Shown here: in pieces, positions 1,809 to 47,303 of the stretch
Position numbering within the stretch: the first letter of the stretch is position 1
How the letters are laid out: every line of letters starts with the position of its first letter
Assembly: GCA_000165345.1 (NCBI GenBank)
Contig: CM000433.1
Coordinates: 864,001 to 928,000, forward strand
Direction: 5' to 3'
DNA: 64,000 bases
Translations under genes and position numbers: made by a program
The notes under the pieces: generated by a model
Databases searched by the model: none
Told to the model about the DNA's origin: nothing
What the model saw: the letters and a program-made list of their open reading frames with translations, nothing else

Positions 1809-2910
<1,102 letters not shown>

Positions 2911-3091
2911 GAACTTTTGTAAAAATCTAAAAACTGAAACAATTAATGATAATACTATTTTTCGACTAAAAAGAGTTTAATAACAGTGCAGACAATGAAA
3001 GTAACCCGTAATATTAAAAAAATCCTATAAAATTGTTTAATTCAAATTAACTTGTTTATACATAATTTTCTTTCTTGCAATTGTGTGTGCG

Positions 3092-35560: not shown

Positions 35561-35963
35561 CTATTACCATCAGATTCAATTCAATTATTAATTTCAAAAA
35601 AAAAACTAACAAACATAAATAATTTTACAACTATTTAATTAAATTAATTCCACTATTATAATTTATTTTATACAATAATATATATTTTACTTTTTCGACA
35701 TTGTTAGAAAACTTGCATGCAATTTTGCAATATAATTCCTTTGCATAATAGATCGTTCGGCGGTAACATGCAGAAGAAAGTATAGAACTGGCGCCCAAAG
35801 CAAGAATGCACACGTAATTTAGTTAATTTATGTTTATGTCTATAAAAAAAAGCATGGAAAGTATAAAAAACTCACAATAAGGGTCAAGGAAATTTTTTTT
35901 ATACAATTTAAGTAAATATAAAAAAGATCATTATTTGAGTGTATCTTGAAAATCGAAGAAGAG

Positions 35964-36626
35964 ATGTCAGAATCATCAAATATAAGAAATGGGAATGCAA
36001 CCGTGAAAATTTCTGCATTATATGGAGAGGAGCAATTTTGTCCAATTGTGGGAGATACAAAGGAAAAGAGTATGGAAACTAATACAAGGAGAATTCCATT
36101 TGGTATGACTGAATTGACTTTGGAACACGAGGCAGCATTGAAAGGTTTATTTGATACATTGAATACATATGGAGATGGTAAAATTAGACTTAATGATTTA
36201 ATTATTGCTTTAAGAAGAGCTTTTGACAATGGTACTGTCACATTCTCAAGACATGAGGCTTCAGCAGCAGAAATTACTGGTGAGCATATTGATAGTGAGC
36301 TTGAGAAACTTAAGGAAGATTTTGACATGAATGGAGATGGAACATTGGATTTTGATGAATTTAGACGCTTGGCAAGAATGAAGATTTTGAGATTAAGTCG
36401 TGATGATGAAATTCAATTAGGTTTCAGACTCTTAGATAGAAATAATAGTGGATATATTACTACTTTAGAATTGAAGCAATTATTAACAACAAAAGGAATT
36501 TCCCCACTTACATCAGAAGAGGCTGATGAGCTTTTATTTATTGCAGATGTTGATCATGATGGATTAATAAGTTATGATGAGATTAAGAGATACTTGGAAT
36601 ATAATAGGAGACCTCTTCTCAATTAG
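35964..36626 (+). CDS. EF-hand calcium-binding protein with four EF-hands (calmodulin or centrin-like fold)
   Basis: Canonical 12-residue EF loops: DTYGDGKIRLNDL, DMNGDGTLDFDEF, DRNNSGYITTLEL and DVDHDGLISYDEI. The track ORF begins at a TTG at 35946, and the first ATG is at 35964 (MSESSNIRNG). The overlapping minus ORF 35840..36328 is rejected. Confidence 0.8.
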   Translation: MSESSNIRNGNATVKISALYGEEQFCPIVGDTKEKSMETNTRRIPFGMTELTLEHEAALKGLFDTLNTYGDGKIRLNDLIIALRRAFDNGTVTFSRHEASAAEITGEHIDSELEKLKEDFDMNGDGTLDFDEFRRLARMKILRLSRDDEIQLGFRLLDRNNSGYITTLELKQLLTTKGISPLTSEEADELLFIADVDHDGLISYDEIKRYLEYNRRPLLN

Positions 36627-37384: not shown

Positions 37385-38418
37385 AATATCTTATTGCAAA
37401 ACATTAATATTTTAATTTAATATGTTATATTTGATTGTTACTCTTTAAGTATTATTGGTAATATAATTTATCAATATTTATATATAAATAAATATATTTA
37501 TAATTTTTTTGTTTTAAATTGTATATACTTAATCTTCTTATTGAGTAAATCCTTCTCTAATACTTAAAAGTCCTCTTGATCTAACAAAAATTCAAATTTA
37601 TATTCTTTGGACTAATACATTTATTATTCTTCTTTTTAAATATTTACCCTTTGCATACAATAAATAAATAAATAAATAATTGAATTTACTCGTACTCGAG
37701 CATTAATTATAATAAATATACCAATTTTACAAGTATTCAATTTCAATATAAATTCAAGTCTCTAAACTTTAATTAATTTAAATAAAATCTTCCTTTTACT
37801 AGAATAAAAACAAAAATTCATTATTCTATTAAGAATTATTAATGTTAACATACTCTCTCTTTTTAAATTACTATCAACTCATTTTCTATATTTTTATTTT
37901 AATATTAATAATTATTATAATTTTTTCCACATGCAATTTATACACGTAATAAAATTAATACTAGTCCATATCATTTTTCGACCGGTATAGGGAAATAAAT
38001 TAAAAATAAATAAATGCAAGGGAAAAAAGGCAGTTGGCGCCTAATCCGGATGCACTTTCAAATATTAATTAATTAGAAATATAATTATTAATTAAAGTTA
38101 ATTAATTAAATATTTTTTTAAAAAAAAGAGTCATAGAAAGAGTTATTCATAAAGTGACTAAAATATGTATCAGGAAATAGTGTTACCAAATATTATTTGT
38201 CTAAAGTTGATTAAATCCATTGATTCATACTGGTATTTTTTTAAATGTGAAGAAAATCAACAAAAAAATTGATTTATTATTCAATTACTCATAAAATTAA
38301 ATTAAATTATTTTTAAGCAAATAAATATAAACAACTATTTGGTATAAATAATGCTAAAAGAATTCATTTAATTATATTATATTTTTTTTTAATAAAGAGT
38401 ACAGATTTTGGATTAATT

Positions 38419-40524
38419 TTGATGAATGCTACTTTATTTTTTTTAATATTATTTTTAGTTTATGCAAAGTCACAAAAGCCTATTAAAAACGAAATCGAAC
38501 TACGAGAAAATGAAAACATAAAGATACCCGTATTTCTTGATAATTTCAGTAATAAGTTGGGATTGGATTTGGTTATAGGAAAAAAAACTGTTCGATTGGT
38601 TATTGATACATTGAATGAAGGAATTCGACTATTTCAAGATGGTACAGAAGCTTGCAATAAAGGCAAGTTAAGTTACTCATTTAGAAGTGGAACCGGGTTT
38701 GAAGACGATAGTGAAATTAGTAGGATTGGGAAATCTCAATCGAATAATGATAGTTGTTATGATCCGCTTTCATCAGACTCAGCTTCTTGGTGTTATAATA
38801 AGGATCACTGCAGAATTAGTTATTATATGGATTCTTATACATGTGAAAAGAAAAAGGAATTTCCAGATACTAGAGAAAATGGGATTTTTAATGCTTTTTT
38901 TCATTCAAATGAAAGGGTTTATGATGGTATAAGTAAATTTGAAGTAATGCTAGAAGGAAATGAGCTTGTGATAATTCCATGGATGGTTCCAGAATTGGTT
39001 TTACAAGAATTTCCAATTAAACTTATAAAGAGTGATTTATCTACAGGAAATGGAGAAAATTGGCCATCTTTTCACAATTTTGATGGATTTATTGGTCTAG
39101 TAGGTAAGTTAATTTTTTTCTATTATTTAGAGTGGGAAACAGGTTCAAGATTATCTTATTTGAAATTGAATCACATTTTTATTGCTTTGTCTTTAATTTA
39201 TCAACTTTACTATTTATGATGATTTCCCTTAATTTTACCATCTTTCGGGTCTGAATTAAGATGTGTTGATATTATGGGATATACTGAAATAGTTAAGGAT
39301 TTATTACTTTAATGTAATTGATAATATATAATCAAGACATTTCAATTTATTATCTTCTTGAACTTAATAATCCCAAAAAAATTTCTCTAAATCGTTAATT
39401 CAATATTTGTTAACTTTGATATTATTTAATTCTTAGGTTCATCAATGTCATGCAGAGGTATATCTATTTGGAATGATATATTAATGTTATATAACGCATC
39501 AAGAGTTTATTTTGATGTAAATTTTGAAAATCCAAATTCATCTTTTCTTTATTTAAATAACTTACCAGAATATTGGGATCCTATCTCAATTTATTGGAGC
39601 GAGCCAAAACAATCTGGATTTGTTTATGATGATGCTCTAAGTCTATTTCAAATCTACAATTTTGAGATATGTGGTTCAAACATTATGGAAAATATCTCTT
39701 CAAATTGGCTTGCTGCTTTGGACTTATCATCAACTTGTTTATCTTTACCTCCCTTTTTATTCGCAAGATTAATGTCATGGTTACCTTTGGATTGTCCCGA
39801 ATATAGTATTAATAATGATAAACTCGAGCTTGATAAATCAAAGGAAAATTATTCACAAAATAATGAATTACTTCCATATTCATCTTTATGCATTGTTAAA
39901 AAGAAGCCTCTCCCTGTTATATCTTTTTGGTTAAGTCAAACTGATTCAAATGATGGTAAAGTTGAGCCTATAAAGATCTTTTTGGATGATTATATTATTC
40001 ATTTTAATAATATTGACTATCTATGTGTAATTAATTCAACACTAGGTACTTTTGGAAAAATTAATTACATACCTTACAGTGAAGGTAATAGTTATAACTA
40101 CTTTACTCCTTATTATTCATCCTCTAATACTCCTTTGATACTCCTTGGTTCTCTTTTTCTCAAATCATATGGTATTGTAATTGATAACAACTCAGGAAAA
40201 GTTGGATTTTATCCAAAATATAAATACAAGGGTTATAATTCTAACACTATTGAACACTCTGTGAATTCAAACTGTGCTCCTAAAAAAGAGTGTCTATTAG
40301 AAAATGGATTTAAATATGATTCATCTATTAATGAATGCATCCCTCCAAATTGCTCAGACTGGCTCCTTTACGAGTTTAATACTGAAACTAATACATGTGA
40401 GCTAAACTCAATATTTCCTCTCGTTCTCGCATTTATAATCGTTCTATTTACTTTCTTTGAAATACATATAATGTACCTAAAACAATATATTCTTGACAGA
40501 TCTAGTGAAATTTCTAATTCATGA
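38419..40524 (+). CDS. Pepsin-like (A1 family) aspartyl-protease homologue with degenerate catalytic motifs and a C-terminal transmembrane anchor. Two exons: join(38419..39103,39437..40524).
   Basis: ORFs 38419..39219 and 39445..40524 join through a GTAAGT donor at 39104 and acceptor tcttag ending 39436, in phase 1 (...FDGFIGLVG-SSMSCRGI...). Signal peptide MMNATLFFLILFLVYAKS. The N-lobe LGLDLVIGKKTVRLVIDTLNEGIRLFQDGTEAC aligns with pepsin [32 protein letters not shown], but D-T-G is D-T-L. The C-lobe NWLAALDLSSTCLSLPP aligns with AIVDTGTSLLTGP, but D-T-G is D-L-S. The C-terminal A1 hallmark ILLGSLFLKSYGIVIDNNSGKVGFYPK parallels [24 protein letters not shown]. A TM helix IFPLVLAFIIVLFTFFEIHIMYL lies near the C-terminus. 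Confidence 0.75.
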
Positions 40525-41146
40525 ATAACCTAATACTAGTTCAAATGTTATAAGGCTACTTACAATTTAAATTATAATTTATTTTGAAAATATACTCTCT
40601 TGTTTTCTAAATCCTATAGTCCTATCATACTTTTTGTAAATTAGAAAAATTTTCAATTCTATTCATGATCATCTTAAAATCGTGAGAAAAAAATCTAATT
40701 ATTATCCCTGCATTCTAATTATTACAAAATATACCGTTATCGGCTTCCCCACATTTTTGGTATCTGCCAAATGGATGAAGCCCGCCTAAATTAAATTAAA
40801 TAATAATATAATTAAATATAATATATATGAATCTACAAGTATAAAAACAAATAATAATATATAATAATAAAATAAAGACGGGACAGTAATTAATTAACTT
40901 AAGGAGGAAGAAAGAATTGATTAGGTATCAATATAGCAACTTAATAGATTTGGACGAAAGGGAAAAATAAAGGGGTTAATCGCAGGAGAAGACCTAAAAA
41001 TTATATTATTTTTAATTCAGGTGAATACGTAAAATCGTATTTGTGTTTATTGATACTATTTCTTCTTTTTTGAAACTGACTAGCTTAGGCATTGATATTA
41101 CTGGTGTTATTGTTTATTTATTGAAGAAGTGAAAATTTGAATTAAG

Positions 41147-41803
41147 ATGAGTGAACTTGAAAAGAAGTTTGAATTAGGAACTCCAAATCCTGCAACTCAG
41201 GAACCAAAGCCAAGTGAGGATGCAACAGCAGAGGGTGGAAACGCAAGTGGAGATGAGAGATATTATCCAGAGGAGGAATTAACAGAAGGTAACTGGAACA
41301 CTCCTCAAGTTGAATTGAAACAAGTTGAGGTAATGACAGGAGAAGAGGATGAAGAAGAGTTCTGGAAACATAGAGCAAAGTTATACCGCTTTGTAAATGG
41401 AGAATGGAAGGAGAGAGGTGTCGGTAACGCAAAATTATTACAACACAAAGAAACCAAGAAAATCAGGTTTCTTCTGAGACAAGAGAAAACTCTAAAAATT
41501 GTTGCTAATCATTATGTAATTCAAAAGGACAGTTTCTGCAAGCTTACTCCAAATAGTGGAAGTAACAAGATATGGGTTTGGACTGTTCATGATTTCTCTG
41601 AAGAGCAAAAGCTCGAACAATTTGCCCTCAAATTCGGTCAAACTGAACAAGCTGACATATTTAAGTCCAAATTTGAAGAGGCTGTTGAAATTAATAGCAA
41701 ACTCTTCAACACTGCTGAAGAGGAAGATTCTGAAAGCAAAAAACAAAAAGATGACGAAAAAAAAGAAGATACAAGTGATAGGCAAAATGAAGAGAAAAAA
41801 TAA
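41147..41803 (+). CDS. RANBP1: Ran-binding protein 1 (RanBD domain, Yrb1/RanBP1)
   Basis: RanBD core WNTPQVELKQVEVMTGEEDEEEFWKHRAKLYRFVNGEWKERGVGNAKLLQHKETKKIRFLLRQEKTLKIVANHYV...WVWTVHDFSEE. Conserved RanBP1 blocks are EE-x-F-x-x-RAKL-x-RF, EWKERG-x-G and KIR-x-L-x-RQ. The overlapping ORFs on both strands are rejected. Confidence 0.85.
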   Translation: MSELEKKFELGTPNPATQEPKPSEDATAEGGNASGDERYYPEEELTEGNWNTPQVELKQVEVMTGEEDEEEFWKHRAKLYRFVNGEWKERGVGNAKLLQHKETKKIRFLLRQEKTLKIVANHYVIQKDSFCKLTPNSGSNKIWVWTVHDFSEEQKLEQFALKFGQTEQADIFKSKFEEAVEINSKLFNTAEEEDSESKKQKDDEKKEDTSDRQNEEKK

Positions 41804-42563: not shown

Positions 42564-43679
42564 TCAATAATCCATAAAGTCTAAATATGATTCAGTAAAA
42601 TTTTCTTTGTTAGATTTAACAATTATTTCATTAGAAATAGTAAAGTTTAATCCTGTAACAATATTTACTTCATTATCATAAAAATATTTTAATTCTTTAA
42701 CTTGACCCAAAGGAACTCCTACTGTGAAGTTCGACTCCAAAAAATCCAAAGTAACTAAAGCTGGGGAATACATTAGATATGCAGGAATATGTTTGATATT
42801 TGGGTAAACAACTATAGGAGTACTGCTAAAATGCTTTACTAGAAATTCCAATGCGGGAGGAAAAGGAACTACATCGTCTTTCATTCCCCAGAAGAAGATT
42901 ATTTTAAAAGTATTTTCGTATTTGGATAATCTTTCAAAATCCAAATGTCTGTCAAATAAGTTGCCATCTCCGCCTGATTTAATATATGTTGAGAACATTT
43001 GGTGAAAAACGTTCGTAGTGGCTTTTTTTTCTTCTTTAGTTTGTTTTCCCAATTTAACATATCCCAATTTGGAGGCGCAATAAAATCCACATCTAAACAC
43101 TCTTTTAGAATTGTGAATGTTCTTAATGGCACTAACAAGAGAAGAATTTGATAATCTGTATAATTTTGGAAAATCATATTTTGTCATTATTCCAGGTGGG
43201 CACATTGGTATTAAGTTACTAATATGATCCGGGTGTTCTAATGCATAATTGATAATGATTAATCCTCCCATTGAAACACCTAATAATGAAATCTTCTCTA
43301 CAGCTTTATTATCACTATCAACCCACCCAACATGTTTAAGCAATTCATTTAATTGATCAACAAATCTTTTTTGTGAGAAAAAACCAGGAAGTTTCCATTC
43401 AGTGTTAGCATGTCCTAATAAATCATAGGTTAAAACTTGATAACCAGTATGAGAAAATATACACCTCCAATTATCAAATTGGGTTGAAGCTGCTAACAAA
43501 CCATGTACCATTACAATTCTTTTTTTTTGTTCTTCTTTAGTTATAGTATAAAAAGTTCTTCCGGATTTCAAATCTGCAAAATCAGATTTAATTACACAGG
43601 AGGAGCCTTGATAGAAGCAAAGTGTAATAAAACAGATTAATGTGATTACGTATTTCAAGTTCATTTTTGCCAAATTCAA
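42564..43679 (-). CDS. Secreted alpha/beta-hydrolase fold esterase or lipase
   Basis: Signal peptide MNLAKMNLKYVITLICFITLCFYQGSS. The HG oxyanion motif reads VMVHGLLAAS. The nucleophile elbow G-x-S-x-G reads LLGVSMGGLII. Length is 371 aa. Confidence 0.7.
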   Translation of the reverse strand: MNLAKMNLKYVITLICFITLCFYQGSSCVIKSDFADLKSGRTFYTITKEEQKKRIVMVHGLLAASTQFDNWRCIFSHTGYQVLTYDLLGHANTEWKLPGFFSQKRFVDQLNELLKHVGWVDSDNKAVEKISLLGVSMGGLIIINYALEHPDHISNLIPMCPPGIMTKYDFPKLYRLSNSSLVSAIKNIHNSKRVFRCGFYCASKLGYVKLGKQTKEEKKATTNVFHQMFSTYIKSGGDGNLFDRHLDFERLSKYENTFKIIFFWGMKDDVVPFPPALEFLVKHFSSTPIVVYPNIKHIPAYLMYSPALVTLDFLESNFTVGVPLGQVKELKYFYDNEVNIVTGLNFTISNEIIVKSNKENFTESYLDFMDY

Positions 43680-45286: not shown

Positions 45287-47303
45287 ATGAAAGTTTTGGG
45301 TTCGAGGAATGAAGAAAATATAGAGTTAACTGAGAATCAAAGAGTTATAAGAAATTCTCAAAATGAAGAAAACTCAAGTAATCTAGTTAATAGACAACAA
45401 AATAACTTGGAAGGTACAAGATTAATAAAATTATTGAGAAAATATGCAGAAAAAGTGCGTGAGTGTTTAATACAACTTGAATATAATTCAAGAGCACAAC
45501 TTCCATTAATCAAGTTTGTTCTGAGAATCTTCATTATCTTATCTTTAACAATTCTACCTCTAATTAACGAAATCCACTCAGTTACTCCTCTTTTGTCAGT
45601 TTTTCTAAGAGAAAGTGATTGGTTTCTAATTCCAATGTCAATGAATAAACATGCAATTAACAATGACTTGTTATTAAGAATAAATCAGCATGAATATAAT
45701 ATGTTATTACAAAAGAAAAACTATCAACAAAGAATTAACCATAGTATTTTTCCAGGATTATTGAATCCCTATGATGATAACGGACTTTTTTCACAGAATT
45801 TAAAACCAAAAAAGTCAAAAAATAACTCAAATGTGTGCATTAATAGGGATGCCCGCCTTTTGATTTCAAAAGAGACTAGTTTAAATTATGAGCATTTGTC
45901 ACTATTAGTACCGACTATTTGGTGTCCAATATCTAATTTGAATAATGAATTTAATCAAGTGATTTATAATACAAGAAGAGAAGGGCAGAGCAGAAAGGTC
46001 AAGATATTATATATGAACAAGGATCAAAATACACGAAATAATATTCTGGGATTAACTTCTTTGAAGATGCATAAAAATACATATAGATATAGACCAACCA
46101 AAATTTTTAAGATTATCTCTACTTCTTTTGTAATTATAAGATGGTTTATGTTAATTTCAAGAATGGTTATGCAGCTTTGGAGTTTTAATACATTTTTTCC
46201 AAACACTGGAAATAGTAATAATATTAATAGTATTGCACAATTTCAGTTTATCCAAGAATTTAAGTCATTGGTTTCTTTTAGCATCTTCTATATTTGGTCA
46301 TTATCATGTGTATACTTATTATTTGGGCTTACAACCAGTAAATGCAGTATTTTTCCAAAAATTGCAATACATGAGAAAGTACAATGGCTACTTTGGAATT
46401 TGTGTACTAATTACTACAATTTGTTTCTATGCTACTAGGTTACCATACTTTGACTATCAAGAAGACTCTAATAATTCAAACTCTTCTGGTTCTAGTAGTT
46501 CTGTAAATAATAATAATAATAATCAATTAGAAGAAGAAAATTATCGCTTAAAGAAAAGGAAAATTTTTATCCAACATATCCTCTCAGTGATTTCTTGTTG
46601 TGGATTTGGATTTTCATTAAGTGGTAGTGTCCTTTTACTATCTACAAGAATTACTAGTCCTTGGGTTAATTCTTGCTTTATTACAATTATCTCACAATCT
46701 TTAGACCTCCTATTAAGAGGTTATTTGGGGCTTATTATTGATCATCATAGCTTTGAAGAAAAAAAGATCAGATATTATAAATATGTATTTCCTTCATACC
46801 TTTTAAAAGATGAAGAGAAGATCCATTGCAATAATAATGGCCAAAGAGAGTGGGTTGTAAAGTGTAACTATAACTCCCAACCTCCTCCTTTAATCTTTAA
46901 GCATTCTTTTATTTCAATCAGTTTAACCAAAATATCATCCACATTCTTTTCACTTAATAACTTCTCTAATAATGAAGAACAAACAGATTCTCAATCAAAT
47001 AATGCTTCTCAAACAACTAATTGTATGATATGTTATGAAAATCCAAGTAATATAGTTTTTTCTCCATGTTTACATAGTGGAATATGCGATAATTGTATAG
47101 ATGAACTAATGAAGTGGACAGTATGTAAATTAAAGAAAATTCCATGCTGTCACCTTTGCCGTTCACCTATTGAAATTGCATGGCAACTTAATCCTAATGA
47201 ATCCAATTCTAATGAAAATAATTACTTTTCTGAGAAATGCACTGAAGTTATTTATCCCAAGTTACAAATTTATGATGATTCTAATGAAAAGAGCAACTTA
47301 TAA
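45287..47303 (+). CDS. Multi-pass membrane protein with a C-terminal C3HC4 RING finger, a putative membrane E3 ubiquitin ligase. It is interrupted by an apparent +1 frame discontinuity near 46230..46440. It is a paralogue of 50342..52534.
   Basis: Two overlapping ORFs, 45287..46438 (frame 2, TM-rich) and 46233..47303 (frame 0), cover a span about the size of the intact paralogue. The C-terminal RING reads CMICYENPSNIVFSPCLHSGICDNCIDELMKWTVCKLKKIPCCHLCRSPI. It parallels the paralogue CNICFLDFDSIIIFSPCGHGGVCLECLGDYISNNFKLKQHPKCHICREDI. I could not find a canonical intron that restores the frame. Confidence 0.55.

What the first reader, a model, noticed from the sequence alone, without database searches (positions are those of the whole stretch)
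38419..40524. A membrane-anchored pepsin-fold protein has both catalytic Asp-Thr-Gly triads degenerate, predicting a pseudo-protease
The two-exon gene encodes an unmistakable A1 aspartyl-protease fold. The flank of the N-lobe, the flank of the C-lobe and the C-terminal ILLGSLFLKSYGIVIDNNSGKVGFYPK signature all align. The first active-site motif reads D-T-L-N-E instead of D-T-G-S-S. The second reads D-L-S-S-T instead of D-T/S-G-T-S. Loss of the conserved glycines, and of the Thr or Ser in the second site, is expected to abolish catalysis, although the two aspartates are retained. The protein has a signal peptide and a C-terminal transmembrane helix, so it is a surface or secretory-pathway pseudo-enzyme. 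Inactive pepsin-like proteins acting as binding modules are known in other eukaryotes, but an inactive membrane-tethered one in a parasite-like genome would be worth characterising. It could be an adhesin or a chaperone of active aspartyl proteases.
Basis: partly seen in the sequence, partly recalled or inferred. Interest (0 to 1): 0.6.

Follow-up and report, generated by a model that had tools for sequence, protein, structure and literature searches.

The report
Membrane-anchored pepsin-like pseudoprotease gene
This Cryptosporidium parvum gene (cgd5_3940) encodes a membrane-anchored protein shaped like a pepsin-type protease but with both catalytic motifs spoiled; it belongs to an uncharacterised family shared by malaria parasites, Babesia, coccidia, chromerids and dinoflagellates.

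Summary

New findings: it is the Cryptosporidium ortholog of a myzozoan clade (Plasmodium, Babesia Bm8, Theileria, coccidia, gregarines, Vitrella, dinoflagellates). All 40 clade members lack the N-lobe glycine, and Plasmodium and piroplasms also lack the N-lobe Asp. Distant unnamed relatives with the same stalk and membrane-anchor architecture keep DTG/DTG. dN/dS is 0.17.

The legacy name "erythrocyte membrane-associated antigen" is an annotation artefact. The intron, conserved across the genus, hosts a C/D-box snoRNA.

Inactivity and function remain inferred. It is a new variant of a known kind, of moderate interest.

The parts
38422..39103 (+). Exon 1 (aa 1-227 plus the first base of the Gly228 codon): signal-peptide-like N-terminus and most of the N-lobe, including a Cys-rich insertion (aa ~77-160)
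   Evidence: The spliced translation is identical to the deposited cgd5_3940 protein. The older Iowa II annotation called this as a separate 265-aa ORF (P0169).
38422..38469 (+). Signal-peptide-like hydrophobic N-terminus (MNATLFFLILFLVYAK, aa 1-16)
   Evidence: Helix aa 3-16 in the model and direct reading of the sequence. No dedicated signal-peptide predictor was available.
38605..38619 (+). Degenerate N-lobe active-site motif D62-T-L-N-E (pepsin D32-T-G-S-S)
   Evidence: hhalign of the N-lobe against pepsin. In the family alignment, 0 of 40 clade members have Gly at position 64, against 37 outgroup sequences with Gly.
39104..39436 (+). Intron: 333 nt, GTAAGT..TAG, phase 1, stop codons in all three frames
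   Evidence: The codon and phase are the same in C. felis, C. meleagridis and C. muris, with lengths of 174, 305 and 322 nt.
39210..39292 (+). Intron-hosted C/D-box snoRNA (Rfam RF00055, SNORD96 family): C box UGAUGA, guide ACCAUCUUUCGGG followed by D' box CUGA, and a terminal D box CUGA
   Evidence: 68.6 bits against a gathering score of 43, E 7e-14. It is the only gathering-level Rfam hit in the 64-kb window. It is also found in the C. meleagridis and C. felis introns. The core CCATCTTTCGGGTCTGA is present in the C. muris intron.
39437..40524 (+). Exon 2 (last two bases of the Gly228 codon, aa 229-589, and the stop codon): end of the N-lobe, the C-lobe, the stalk, the membrane helix and the tail
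   Evidence: Several species' annotations call only this exon (P0002, P0004-P0008).
39448..39456 (+). Clade-specific invariant S232-C233-R234, directly after the pepsin-like FDGxxGL block
   Evidence: Cys-Arg is present in 37 of 38 clade sequences that have this region. It is absent from the outgroup.
39721..39735 (+). Degenerate C-lobe active-site motif D323-L-S-S-T (pepsin D215-T-G-T-S), followed by the family-wide Cys328
   Evidence: hhalign against pepsin, 98.2%, E 4e-14.
40138..40218 (+). C-terminal pepsin signature block ILLGSLFLKSYGIVIDNNSGKVGFYPK (aa 462-488)
   Evidence: It aligns to pepsin [26 protein letters not shown] and to aspergillopepsin.
40273..40398 (+). Cys-rich stalk (C507, C513, C528, C533, C548; N526 and P531 also nearly invariant)
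   Evidence: These positions are nearly invariant across all 143 aligned family members. The model gives a small beta-rich module with pLDDT >90. No Pfam match.
40411..40479 (+). Transmembrane helix (aa 553-575) with the conserved acidic residue E569
   Evidence: Highest hydropathy in the protein. Helix 554-588 with pLDDT ~95. Asp or Glu at this column in 34 of 34 clade sequences and 84 of 98 outgroup sequences that have the region.
40480..40524 (+). Short cytosolic tail (KQYILDRSSEISNS) and the stop codon
   Evidence: Sequence. A Tyr at the membrane boundary (Y574) is found in 30 of 33 clade sequences.

Best explanation
cgd5_3940 encodes a type I membrane glycoprotein. Its layout is: signal peptide, pepsin-fold (A1-like) ectodomain, disulfide-rich stalk, one membrane helix, and a 14-residue cytosolic tail.

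The ectodomain descends from an active, membrane-anchored A1 protease, but the catalytic machinery is disabled. In the N-lobe, Gly34 has become Leu and Ser35-Ser36 have become Asn-Glu. In the C-lobe, Thr216 has become Leu and Gly217 has become Ser.

It most likely works as a non-catalytic module that binds a peptide or protein in the remnant of the substrate cleft. The stalk holds it at the luminal or extracellular face of a secretory-pathway membrane. The buried acidic residue of the membrane helix (E569) probably couples it to a partner membrane protein.

Shown here: the gene model, the fold, the positions of the substituted residues, the family architecture, purifying selection, and orthology across Myzozoa.

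Inferred: loss of catalysis, ligand binding, partner coupling through the membrane helix, and an early-secretory location.
For: - Identity and gene model.
- Homology chain: the exhaustive profile search finds 533 representatives. Of 60 aligned members, 28 are bona fide PF00026 hits.
- Motif positions.
- Degeneration is a clade property. Gly at the G34 position occurs in 0 of 40 clade sequences, against 37 outgroup sequences. The N-lobe Asp is replaced by Asn, Ser, Gly or Ala in Plasmodium, Theileria, Babesia Bm8, Cardiosporidium and others. 27 outgroup members are canonical at both sites.
- The clade gained an invariant Cys-Arg next to the cleft-forming FDGxxGL block.
- Purifying selection: dN/dS is 0.17 against C. 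meleagridis.
- The stalk cysteines and the acidic membrane-helix residue are conserved family-wide.
- Indirect location and essentiality: a P. falciparum PF10_0177 exon-1 GFP fusion was perinuclear and not exported, and no P. berghei knockout was obtained (PMC2408878). Bm8 antiserum stains inside the parasite (PMC10469411).
Against: - Both aspartates are retained in Cryptosporidium, and the C-lobe Asp is kept in 36 of 40 clade members. Residual or unconventional catalysis is therefore not excluded.
- No enzymatic, localisation or interaction data exist for the Cryptosporidium protein.
- I could not inspect model coordinates, so cleft openness and Asp-Asp geometry are unknown.
- The link between PF10_0177 exon 1 and the pepsin-like gene is inferred from two papers, not verified by sequence.
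- The clade grouping rests on an unbootstrapped neighbour-joining tree.
Confidence: 0.6

Rival explanations
1. It is still a working aspartic protease with an unconventional active site, for example catalysis driven mainly by the conserved C-lobe Asp, as in the Plasmodium histo-aspartic protease, where the N-lobe Asp is His.
For: D62 and D323 are both present in Cryptosporidium. D323 is kept in 36 of 40 clade members and Thr63 is kept. The overall cleft-forming fold is preserved. HAP as an active enzyme with a substituted N-lobe Asp is from my own knowledge of the literature.
Against: - The glycines that follow both aspartates are replaced: Leu64, and Ser325 preceded by Leu324 in place of Thr/Ser.
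- No clade member has Gly at position 64.
- Orthologs in Plasmodium, Theileria and Babesia lack the N-lobe Asp altogether (N/S/G) and carry no His there.
Confidence: 0.1
2. It is a surface antigen or adhesin displayed on the parasite plasma membrane (or delivered to the host-cell membrane), as the legacy name 'erythrocyte membrane-associated antigen' and the Bm8 vaccine work suggest. This concerns where it acts. It could coexist with the pseudo-enzyme reading.
For: Type I topology with a large glycosylatable ectodomain carrying 10 N-x-S/T sequons. [quoted passage not shown]
Against: - The name derives from an old fused P. falciparum gene model, PF10_0177 (EF-hand + phosphatase + 'acid protease' domains), that was later split (PMC2559854). 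It is not based on localisation.
- The PF10_0177 exon-1 GFP fusion was perinuclear and not exported.
- The family is conserved in free-living or photosynthetic relatives (Vitrella, dinoflagellates) that have no host cell to adhere to.
Confidence: 0.2
3. The model is an annotation artefact or a decaying pseudogene: two unrelated ORFs joined by a false intron, or a dead protease gene drifting neutrally.
For: Older annotations split the locus into two ORFs (P0169 and P0002). Pfam sees no domain.
Against: - Intron position and phase are conserved in four species, with lengths differing by amounts that are not multiples of three.
- The junction rebuilds a motif that is contiguous in homologs, including a dinoflagellate homolog from a transcript assembly.
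- dN/dS is 0.17.
- Full-length orthologs at 24-58% identity exist across Myzozoa.
- The model is confident across both exons.
Confidence: 0.02

Closest known systems
Peptidase family A1 (pepsin, cathepsin D, plasmepsins)
   Different: - Both D-T/S-G motifs are degenerate (DTLNE, DLSST).
- No Pfam PF00026 match.
- Only 10-17% identity to solved A1 structures.
- An extra Cys-rich N-lobe insertion, a stalk and a membrane helix.
Non-catalytic pepsin-fold proteins (cockroach allergen Bla g 2, ruminant pregnancy-associated glycoproteins, wheat xylanase inhibitor TAXI, soybean Basic 7S globulin)
   Different: Those are soluble secreted proteins of animals and plants with lineage-restricted roles. This one is membrane-tethered through a conserved stalk and helix. 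It is a single conserved ortholog group across Myzozoa, and its ligand is unknown.
Membrane-anchored A1 proteases (BACE1/memapsin 2; plasmepsin V / Toxoplasma ASP5)
   Different: Those keep DTG/DSG and are proven enzymes. They lack the Cys-rich stalk, the acidic membrane-helix residue and the S-C-R motif (my reading of the family alignment; BACE and PMV features are from own knowledge).
Babesia microti Bm8 and the 'erythrocyte membrane-associated antigen' / 'peptidase, putative' orthologs of Theileria and Plasmodium
   Same: Same ortholog group. Bm8 aligns over 558 columns, including stalk and membrane helix (E 1e-44, 27% identity). The T. equi and P. berghei members come from the profile search. 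The architecture is the same and the motifs are degenerate.
   Different: Bm8 and Plasmodium have lost even the N-lobe Asp (SGRLE, NSRLE). Plasmodium proteins carry long low-complexity N-terminal extensions (715-1120 aa). The Bm8 paper treats it as an antigen and does not describe it as a pepsin-fold pseudo-enzyme.
Apicomplexan pseudoproteases of other folds (e.g. Plasmodium SERA5, papain-like)
   Same: The concept: a protease fold retained without canonical catalysis, in a parasite secretory compartment, with a regulatory role (mentioned in PMC8540915).
   Different: Unrelated fold and family. SERA5 is soluble in the parasitophorous vacuole.

Membership tests
Peptidase family A1 (pepsin-like), as a fold/homology class | Bilobal pepsin fold | tested here: met
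Peptidase family A1 (pepsin-like), as a fold/homology class | Significant sequence match to the family model (Pfam PF00026) or to a member | tested here: inconclusive
   The protein itself gives 0 Pfam families at E<=10. However, the family profile against pepsin gives hhalign 98.2%, E 4e-14, and 28 of 60 relatives hit PF00026, best E 2.3e-17.
Peptidase family A1, as an active enzyme | N-lobe catalytic motif D-T/S-G-S/T | tested here: not met
   D62-T-L-N-E is aligned to pepsin D32-T-G-S-S.
Peptidase family A1, as an active enzyme | C-lobe catalytic motif D-T/S-G-T/S | tested here: not met
   D323-L-S-S-T is aligned to pepsin D215-T-G-T-S. No D[TS]G occurs in any frame of the locus.
Peptidase family A1, as an active enzyme | Pepstatin-sensitive endopeptidase activity | not testable with these tools
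   Needs recombinant protein.
Non-catalytic pepsin-fold proteins (pseudoproteases) | Pepsin fold combined with substitution of residues of the catalytic motifs | tested here: met
Non-catalytic pepsin-fold proteins (pseudoproteases) | Demonstrated absence of proteolytic activity and a binding function | not testable with these tools
Inactivity is inferred from the loss of Gly34, Thr216 and Gly217 equivalents and from orthologs that lack the N-lobe Asp.
Myzozoan Bm8 / 'erythrocyte membrane-associated antigen'-named ortholog group | Full-length similarity to named members (Bm8, T. equi, P. berghei, Vitrella) | tested here: met
   Profile search E 1e-61 to 1e-150, with names. BLASTP to Bm8 gives E 1e-44 over 558 columns.
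Myzozoan Bm8 / 'erythrocyte membrane-associated antigen'-named ortholog group | Architecture: signal peptide + pepsin-like domain + 5-Cys stalk + membrane helix with an acidic residue + short basic tail | tested here: met
Myzozoan Bm8 / 'erythrocyte membrane-associated antigen'-named ortholog group | Clade motif G-x2-G-x2-G-x3-S-C-R, and no Gly after the N-lobe D-T/S position | tested here: met
   S232-C233-R234 is present. Cys-Arg is found in 37 of 38 clade sequences, and Gly64 in 0 of 40. One bipartition of the NJ tree holds 36 of the 37 Cys-Arg sequences.
Membrane-anchored A1 proteases (BACE1, plasmepsin V/ASP5) | C-terminal membrane helix on an A1 domain | tested here: met
Membrane-anchored A1 proteases (BACE1, plasmepsin V/ASP5) | Intact DTG/DSG catalytic dyad | tested here: not met

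The most novel reading that the evidence does not exclude
The protein is the Cryptosporidium member of an essential, pan-myzozoan membrane-tethered pseudo-pepsin that uses its dead substrate cleft as a receptor. One possibility is recognising a linear motif on secretory cargo, or on an active aspartyl protease such as the plasmepsin V/ASP5 or ASP3 type. It would assemble through its charged membrane helix into a so-far undescribed secretory-pathway complex. In this reading it would be the aspartyl-protease counterpart of the rhomboid pseudoproteases (iRhoms).
Probability: 0.2. Interest if true: 0.7.

Novelty: new variant of a known kind. Interest (0 to 1): 0.45.

Why it matters
[quoted passage not shown] This family therefore falls outside the usual ASP1-7 / plasmepsin I-X lists, even though it is one of the most widely conserved pepsin-fold proteins in the group.
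- It is under purifying selection and is kept from dinoflagellates to Plasmodium. It may be refractory to deletion in P. berghei.
- Its Babesia ortholog has already been proposed as a cross-species vaccine antigen, without anyone noting what kind of protein it is.
- Recognising it as a probable pseudo-enzyme prevents it from being counted as a druggable protease.
- It corrects a misleading inherited name.
- It points to a concrete set of residues to mutate: the cleft, the Cys-Arg pair, and the acidic residue in the membrane helix.

Tried and rejected
- Pfam on the protein gave nothing.
- phmmer and a six-sequence profile against PDB sequences gave only sub-threshold pepsin hits. These were suggestive because they were colinear, but not significant.
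- The first AlphaFold run, with 11 sequences, was unusable (pLDDT 47.6).
- Two further word-indexed homolog searches with alignments added no new lineages.
- The afdb50 fold library was unavailable.
- Literature searches for cgd5_3940 and for terms such as 'aspartyl pseudoprotease' returned nothing.
- PF3D7_0703500, which also carries the name 'erythrocyte membrane-associated antigen', is an unrelated UPF1-like helicase and was discarded.
- I could not establish the current P. falciparum ID of the ortholog. PF3D7_1018300 and PF3D7_1018100 are only guesses.
- No supplementary tables are held for the C. parvum proteome paper.
- Midpoint rooting of the NJ tree was uninformative, so I used an unrooted bipartition instead.
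- The idea that the upstream EF-hand gene reflects a conserved linkage with the Plasmodium EF-hand phosphatase neighbour was noted but not tested.
Full report
**What is there.** The window is AT-rich (about 25% G+C) and comes from Cryptosporidium parvum chromosome 5. The spliced product of 38422..39103 + 39437..40524 is identical over all 589 residues to the deposited cgd5_3940 protein. That protein is named "Aspartic peptidase domain containing protein" or "hypothetical protein CPHLJ_5g3940".

The intron (39104..39436, 333 nt, GTAAGT..TAG, phase 1) has stop codons in all frames. It lies in the same Gly codon in three other species:
- C. meleagridis, 305 nt
- C. felis, 174 nt
- C. muris, 322 nt

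Splicing rebuilds the block FDGFIGLVG|SSMSCRG. This block is contiguous in homologs, including a dinoflagellate homolog (Yihiella, P0016) that derives from a transcript assembly. Older annotations split the locus into two ORFs (P0169, 265 aa; P0002, 346 aa). Gene order is conserved: an EF-hand gene and a small minus-strand ORF upstream, RanBP1 and an alpha/beta-hydrolase downstream.

**Is it a pepsin fold?** Routine tests do not show it. Pfam finds nothing even at E<=10. phmmer against PDB sequences finds only a 53-residue C-terminal match to aspergillopepsin at E=0.048. A six-sequence profile gives 14 sub-threshold hits, 11 of them pepsins, colinear in three blocks.

The decisive evidence came from depth.
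- An exhaustive profile search found 533 family representatives (383 at E<=1e-10).
- Of 60 aligned members, 28 are genuine PF00026 matches (best E 2.3e-17).
- The 143-sequence family profile matches porcine pepsin with hhalign probability 98.2%, E 4e-14. The pepsin sequence was checked as identical to PDB 1f34_A.
- The N-lobe alone matches at 88.8%, E 2.5e-6.
- AlphaFold2 was poor with 11 sequences (pLDDT 47.6) and confident with 143 (pLDDT 83.5, pTM 0.82).
- Foldseek gives 548 PDB hits at E<=1e-3, and the top 50 are all A1 proteases.

**Are the catalytic motifs degenerate, and are they in the right place?** Yes. D62-T-L-N-E aligns with pepsin D32-T-G-S-S. D323-L-S-S-T aligns with D215-T-G-T-S. 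The family alignment shows the same columns carrying DTGSS and DTG[AS]xC in distant members. No D[TS]G tripeptide is encoded in any of the six frames between 37400 and 41140, so alternative exons cannot restore a canonical site.

**Evolutionary context.** Named members of the family are:
- other Cryptosporidium species: C. meleagridis 90%, C. felis 58%, C. muris 45% identity
- Plasmodium berghei and P. gallinaceum ("peptidase, putative")
- Theileria equi ("erythrocyte membrane-associated malaria like protein")
- Besnoitia, Eimeria and Cardiosporidium
- the gregarine Digyalum
- the chromerid Vitrella
- the dinoflagellate Yihiella

Babesia microti Bm8, taken from the supplement of PMC10469411, aligns over 558 columns at E 1e-44.

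These sequences share an invariant Cys-Arg right after the FDGxxGL block (37 of 38). One bipartition of a rough NJ tree holds 36 of the 37 Cys-Arg sequences plus four fragments or variants.

| Position | Clade (40 sequences) | Outgroup |
|---|---|---|
| Gly at the G34 position | 0 | 37 sequences |
| Gly at the G217 position | 8 of 40 | 61 sequences |
| N-lobe Asp | 25 of the 37 that have the region | not the focus |
| C-lobe Asp | 36 of 40 | not the focus |

The N-lobe Asp is replaced by Asn in Plasmodium and T. equi, and by Ser or Gly in other piroplasms and Cardiosporidium. Twenty-seven outgroup sequences are canonical at both sites. The outgroup sequences are unnamed and come from metagenomes and read-archive assemblies.

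The stalk cysteines (C507, C513, C528, C533, C548) are nearly invariant in the whole family, as is the acidic residue in the membrane helix (E569 column: 34 of 34 in the clade, 84 of 98 in the outgroup). The simplest reading is that an active, membrane-anchored A1 protease with a Cys-rich stalk lost its catalytic glycines in the common ancestor of dinoflagellates, chromerids and apicomplexans. It was then kept for a different job. Between C. parvum and C. meleagridis, dN/dS is 0.17. That agrees with the 5 non-synonymous changes among 12 SNPs reported for the C. hominis ortholog Chro.50457. Its typing primers map inside exon 2 at 39784..39803 and 40154..40177 (PMC2928199).

**The name.** "Erythrocyte membrane-associated antigen" on the C. 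felis, C. hominis and Theileria proteins traces to the old P. falciparum model PF10_0177. [quoted passage not shown] It says nothing about location. A different Plasmodium protein with the same name (PF3D7_0703500) is a UPF1-like helicase. A GFP fusion of PF10_0177 exon 1 (1015 residues with a signal sequence) was perinuclear and not exported, and no P. berghei knockout was obtained (PMC2408878). That this exon is the pepsin-like gene is my inference from the two papers.

**How it most likely works.** I commit to a non-catalytic, membrane-tethered binding module.
- The substitutions hit exactly the residues that shape the catalytic centre in A1 enzymes (established knowledge of the family).
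- Orthologs dispense with one of the two aspartates.
- The fold, a clade-specific Cys-Arg pair next to a cleft-forming segment, the stalk, and a charged membrane helix are nevertheless under strong constraint.
- A charged residue inside a single-pass helix usually signals assembly with another membrane protein (general knowledge; an inference here).

I put about 0.85 on "pepsin fold with a non-canonical, probably dead active site". I put about 0.6 on the full statement, including the binding or scaffold role. Rivals: residual unconventional catalysis (0.1), a surface antigen or adhesin role (0.2, not exclusive of the main reading), and artefact or pseudogene (0.02).

**In passing.** The intron hosts a C/D-box snoRNA (Rfam SNORD96 family, 68.6 bits against a gathering score of 43, window 39210..39292). 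It is the only gathering-level Rfam hit in the 64 kb. It recurs in the C. meleagridis and C. felis introns. Its core, CCATCTTTCGGGTCTGA, is intact in C. muris. The intron diverges less than synonymous sites (8.5% against pS 22.7%). In an intron-poor genome this probably explains why the intron persists.

**Verdict.** It is a new variant of a known kind (pseudo-pepsins). The gene is already annotated as an A1-domain protein, but I found no paper in the searchable literature that describes the family as a pseudo-enzyme. Interest is moderate.

Noticed in passing
window 39210..39292 (+), inside the intron 39104..39436; L002 3783..3865; L001 4740..4821; L003 intron 2689..3010: The intron of cgd5_3940 hosts a C/D-box snoRNA (Rfam RF00055 SNORD96 family, 68.6 bits against a gathering score of 43). 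It is conserved in C. meleagridis and C. felis, and its core guide plus D' box (CCATCTTTCGGGTCTGA) is intact in C. muris. It is the only gathering-level Rfam hit in the whole window. From memory, the guide is complementary to the conserved LSU rRNA sequence CCCGAAAGAUGG. That was not tested.
   Followed up: partly
window 39104..39436 compared with L002 3683..3987: The intron is long for Cryptosporidium and diverges less than synonymous sites between C. parvum and C. meleagridis (8.5% against pS 22.7%). Conservation extends beyond the snoRNA core in these two close species, but not in C. felis.
   Followed up: partly
window 38419..39219 and 39445..40524: Older or automatic annotations in several Cryptosporidium species split this gene into two separate ORFs: the exon-1 ORF P0169 (265 aa, Iowa II) and exon-2 ORFs P0002 and P0004-P0008. 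Those database entries are truncated halves of one protein.
   Followed up: yes
window 39784..39803 (+) and 40154..40177 (-): [quoted passage not shown] They give the reported 394-bp amplicon inside exon 2, with one mismatch in the reverse primer.
   Followed up: yes
window 35946..36626 (+): The upstream neighbour is an EF-hand protein (EF-hand_7, E 7.6e-25), and it is syntenic in C. meleagridis, C. felis and C. muris. In P. falciparum the ortholog of the pepsin-like gene was once fused in one gene model with an EF-hand phosphatase. Whether this reflects ancient linkage or coincidence is unknown.
   Followed up: no
window 41147..41803 (+), 42564..43679 (-), 46233..47303 (+): The downstream genes are a RanBP1-domain protein (E 5.8e-39), an alpha/beta-hydrolase (Abhydrolase_1, E 9.5e-20) and a RING-finger protein. 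The order of the first two is conserved in all three other Cryptosporidium species examined.
   Followed up: partly
window 38020..38055 and 40735..40790: Short G+C-rich islands stand out in the otherwise very AT-rich intergenic DNA on both sides of the gene. The upstream one contains TTGGCGCC (38034..38041). From memory, this resembles the E2F-like motif reported upstream of many Cryptosporidium genes.
   Followed up: no
cgd5_3940 aa 313-315 (window 39691..39699): An N-x-S/T sequon (N-I-S) just before the conserved S-S-N-W and the C-lobe Asp strand recurs in many family members, canonical ones included (Asn at this column in 18 of 40 clade sequences and 52 of 103 outgroup sequences). This suggests a widely retained N-glycosylation site near the cleft.
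   Followed up: partly
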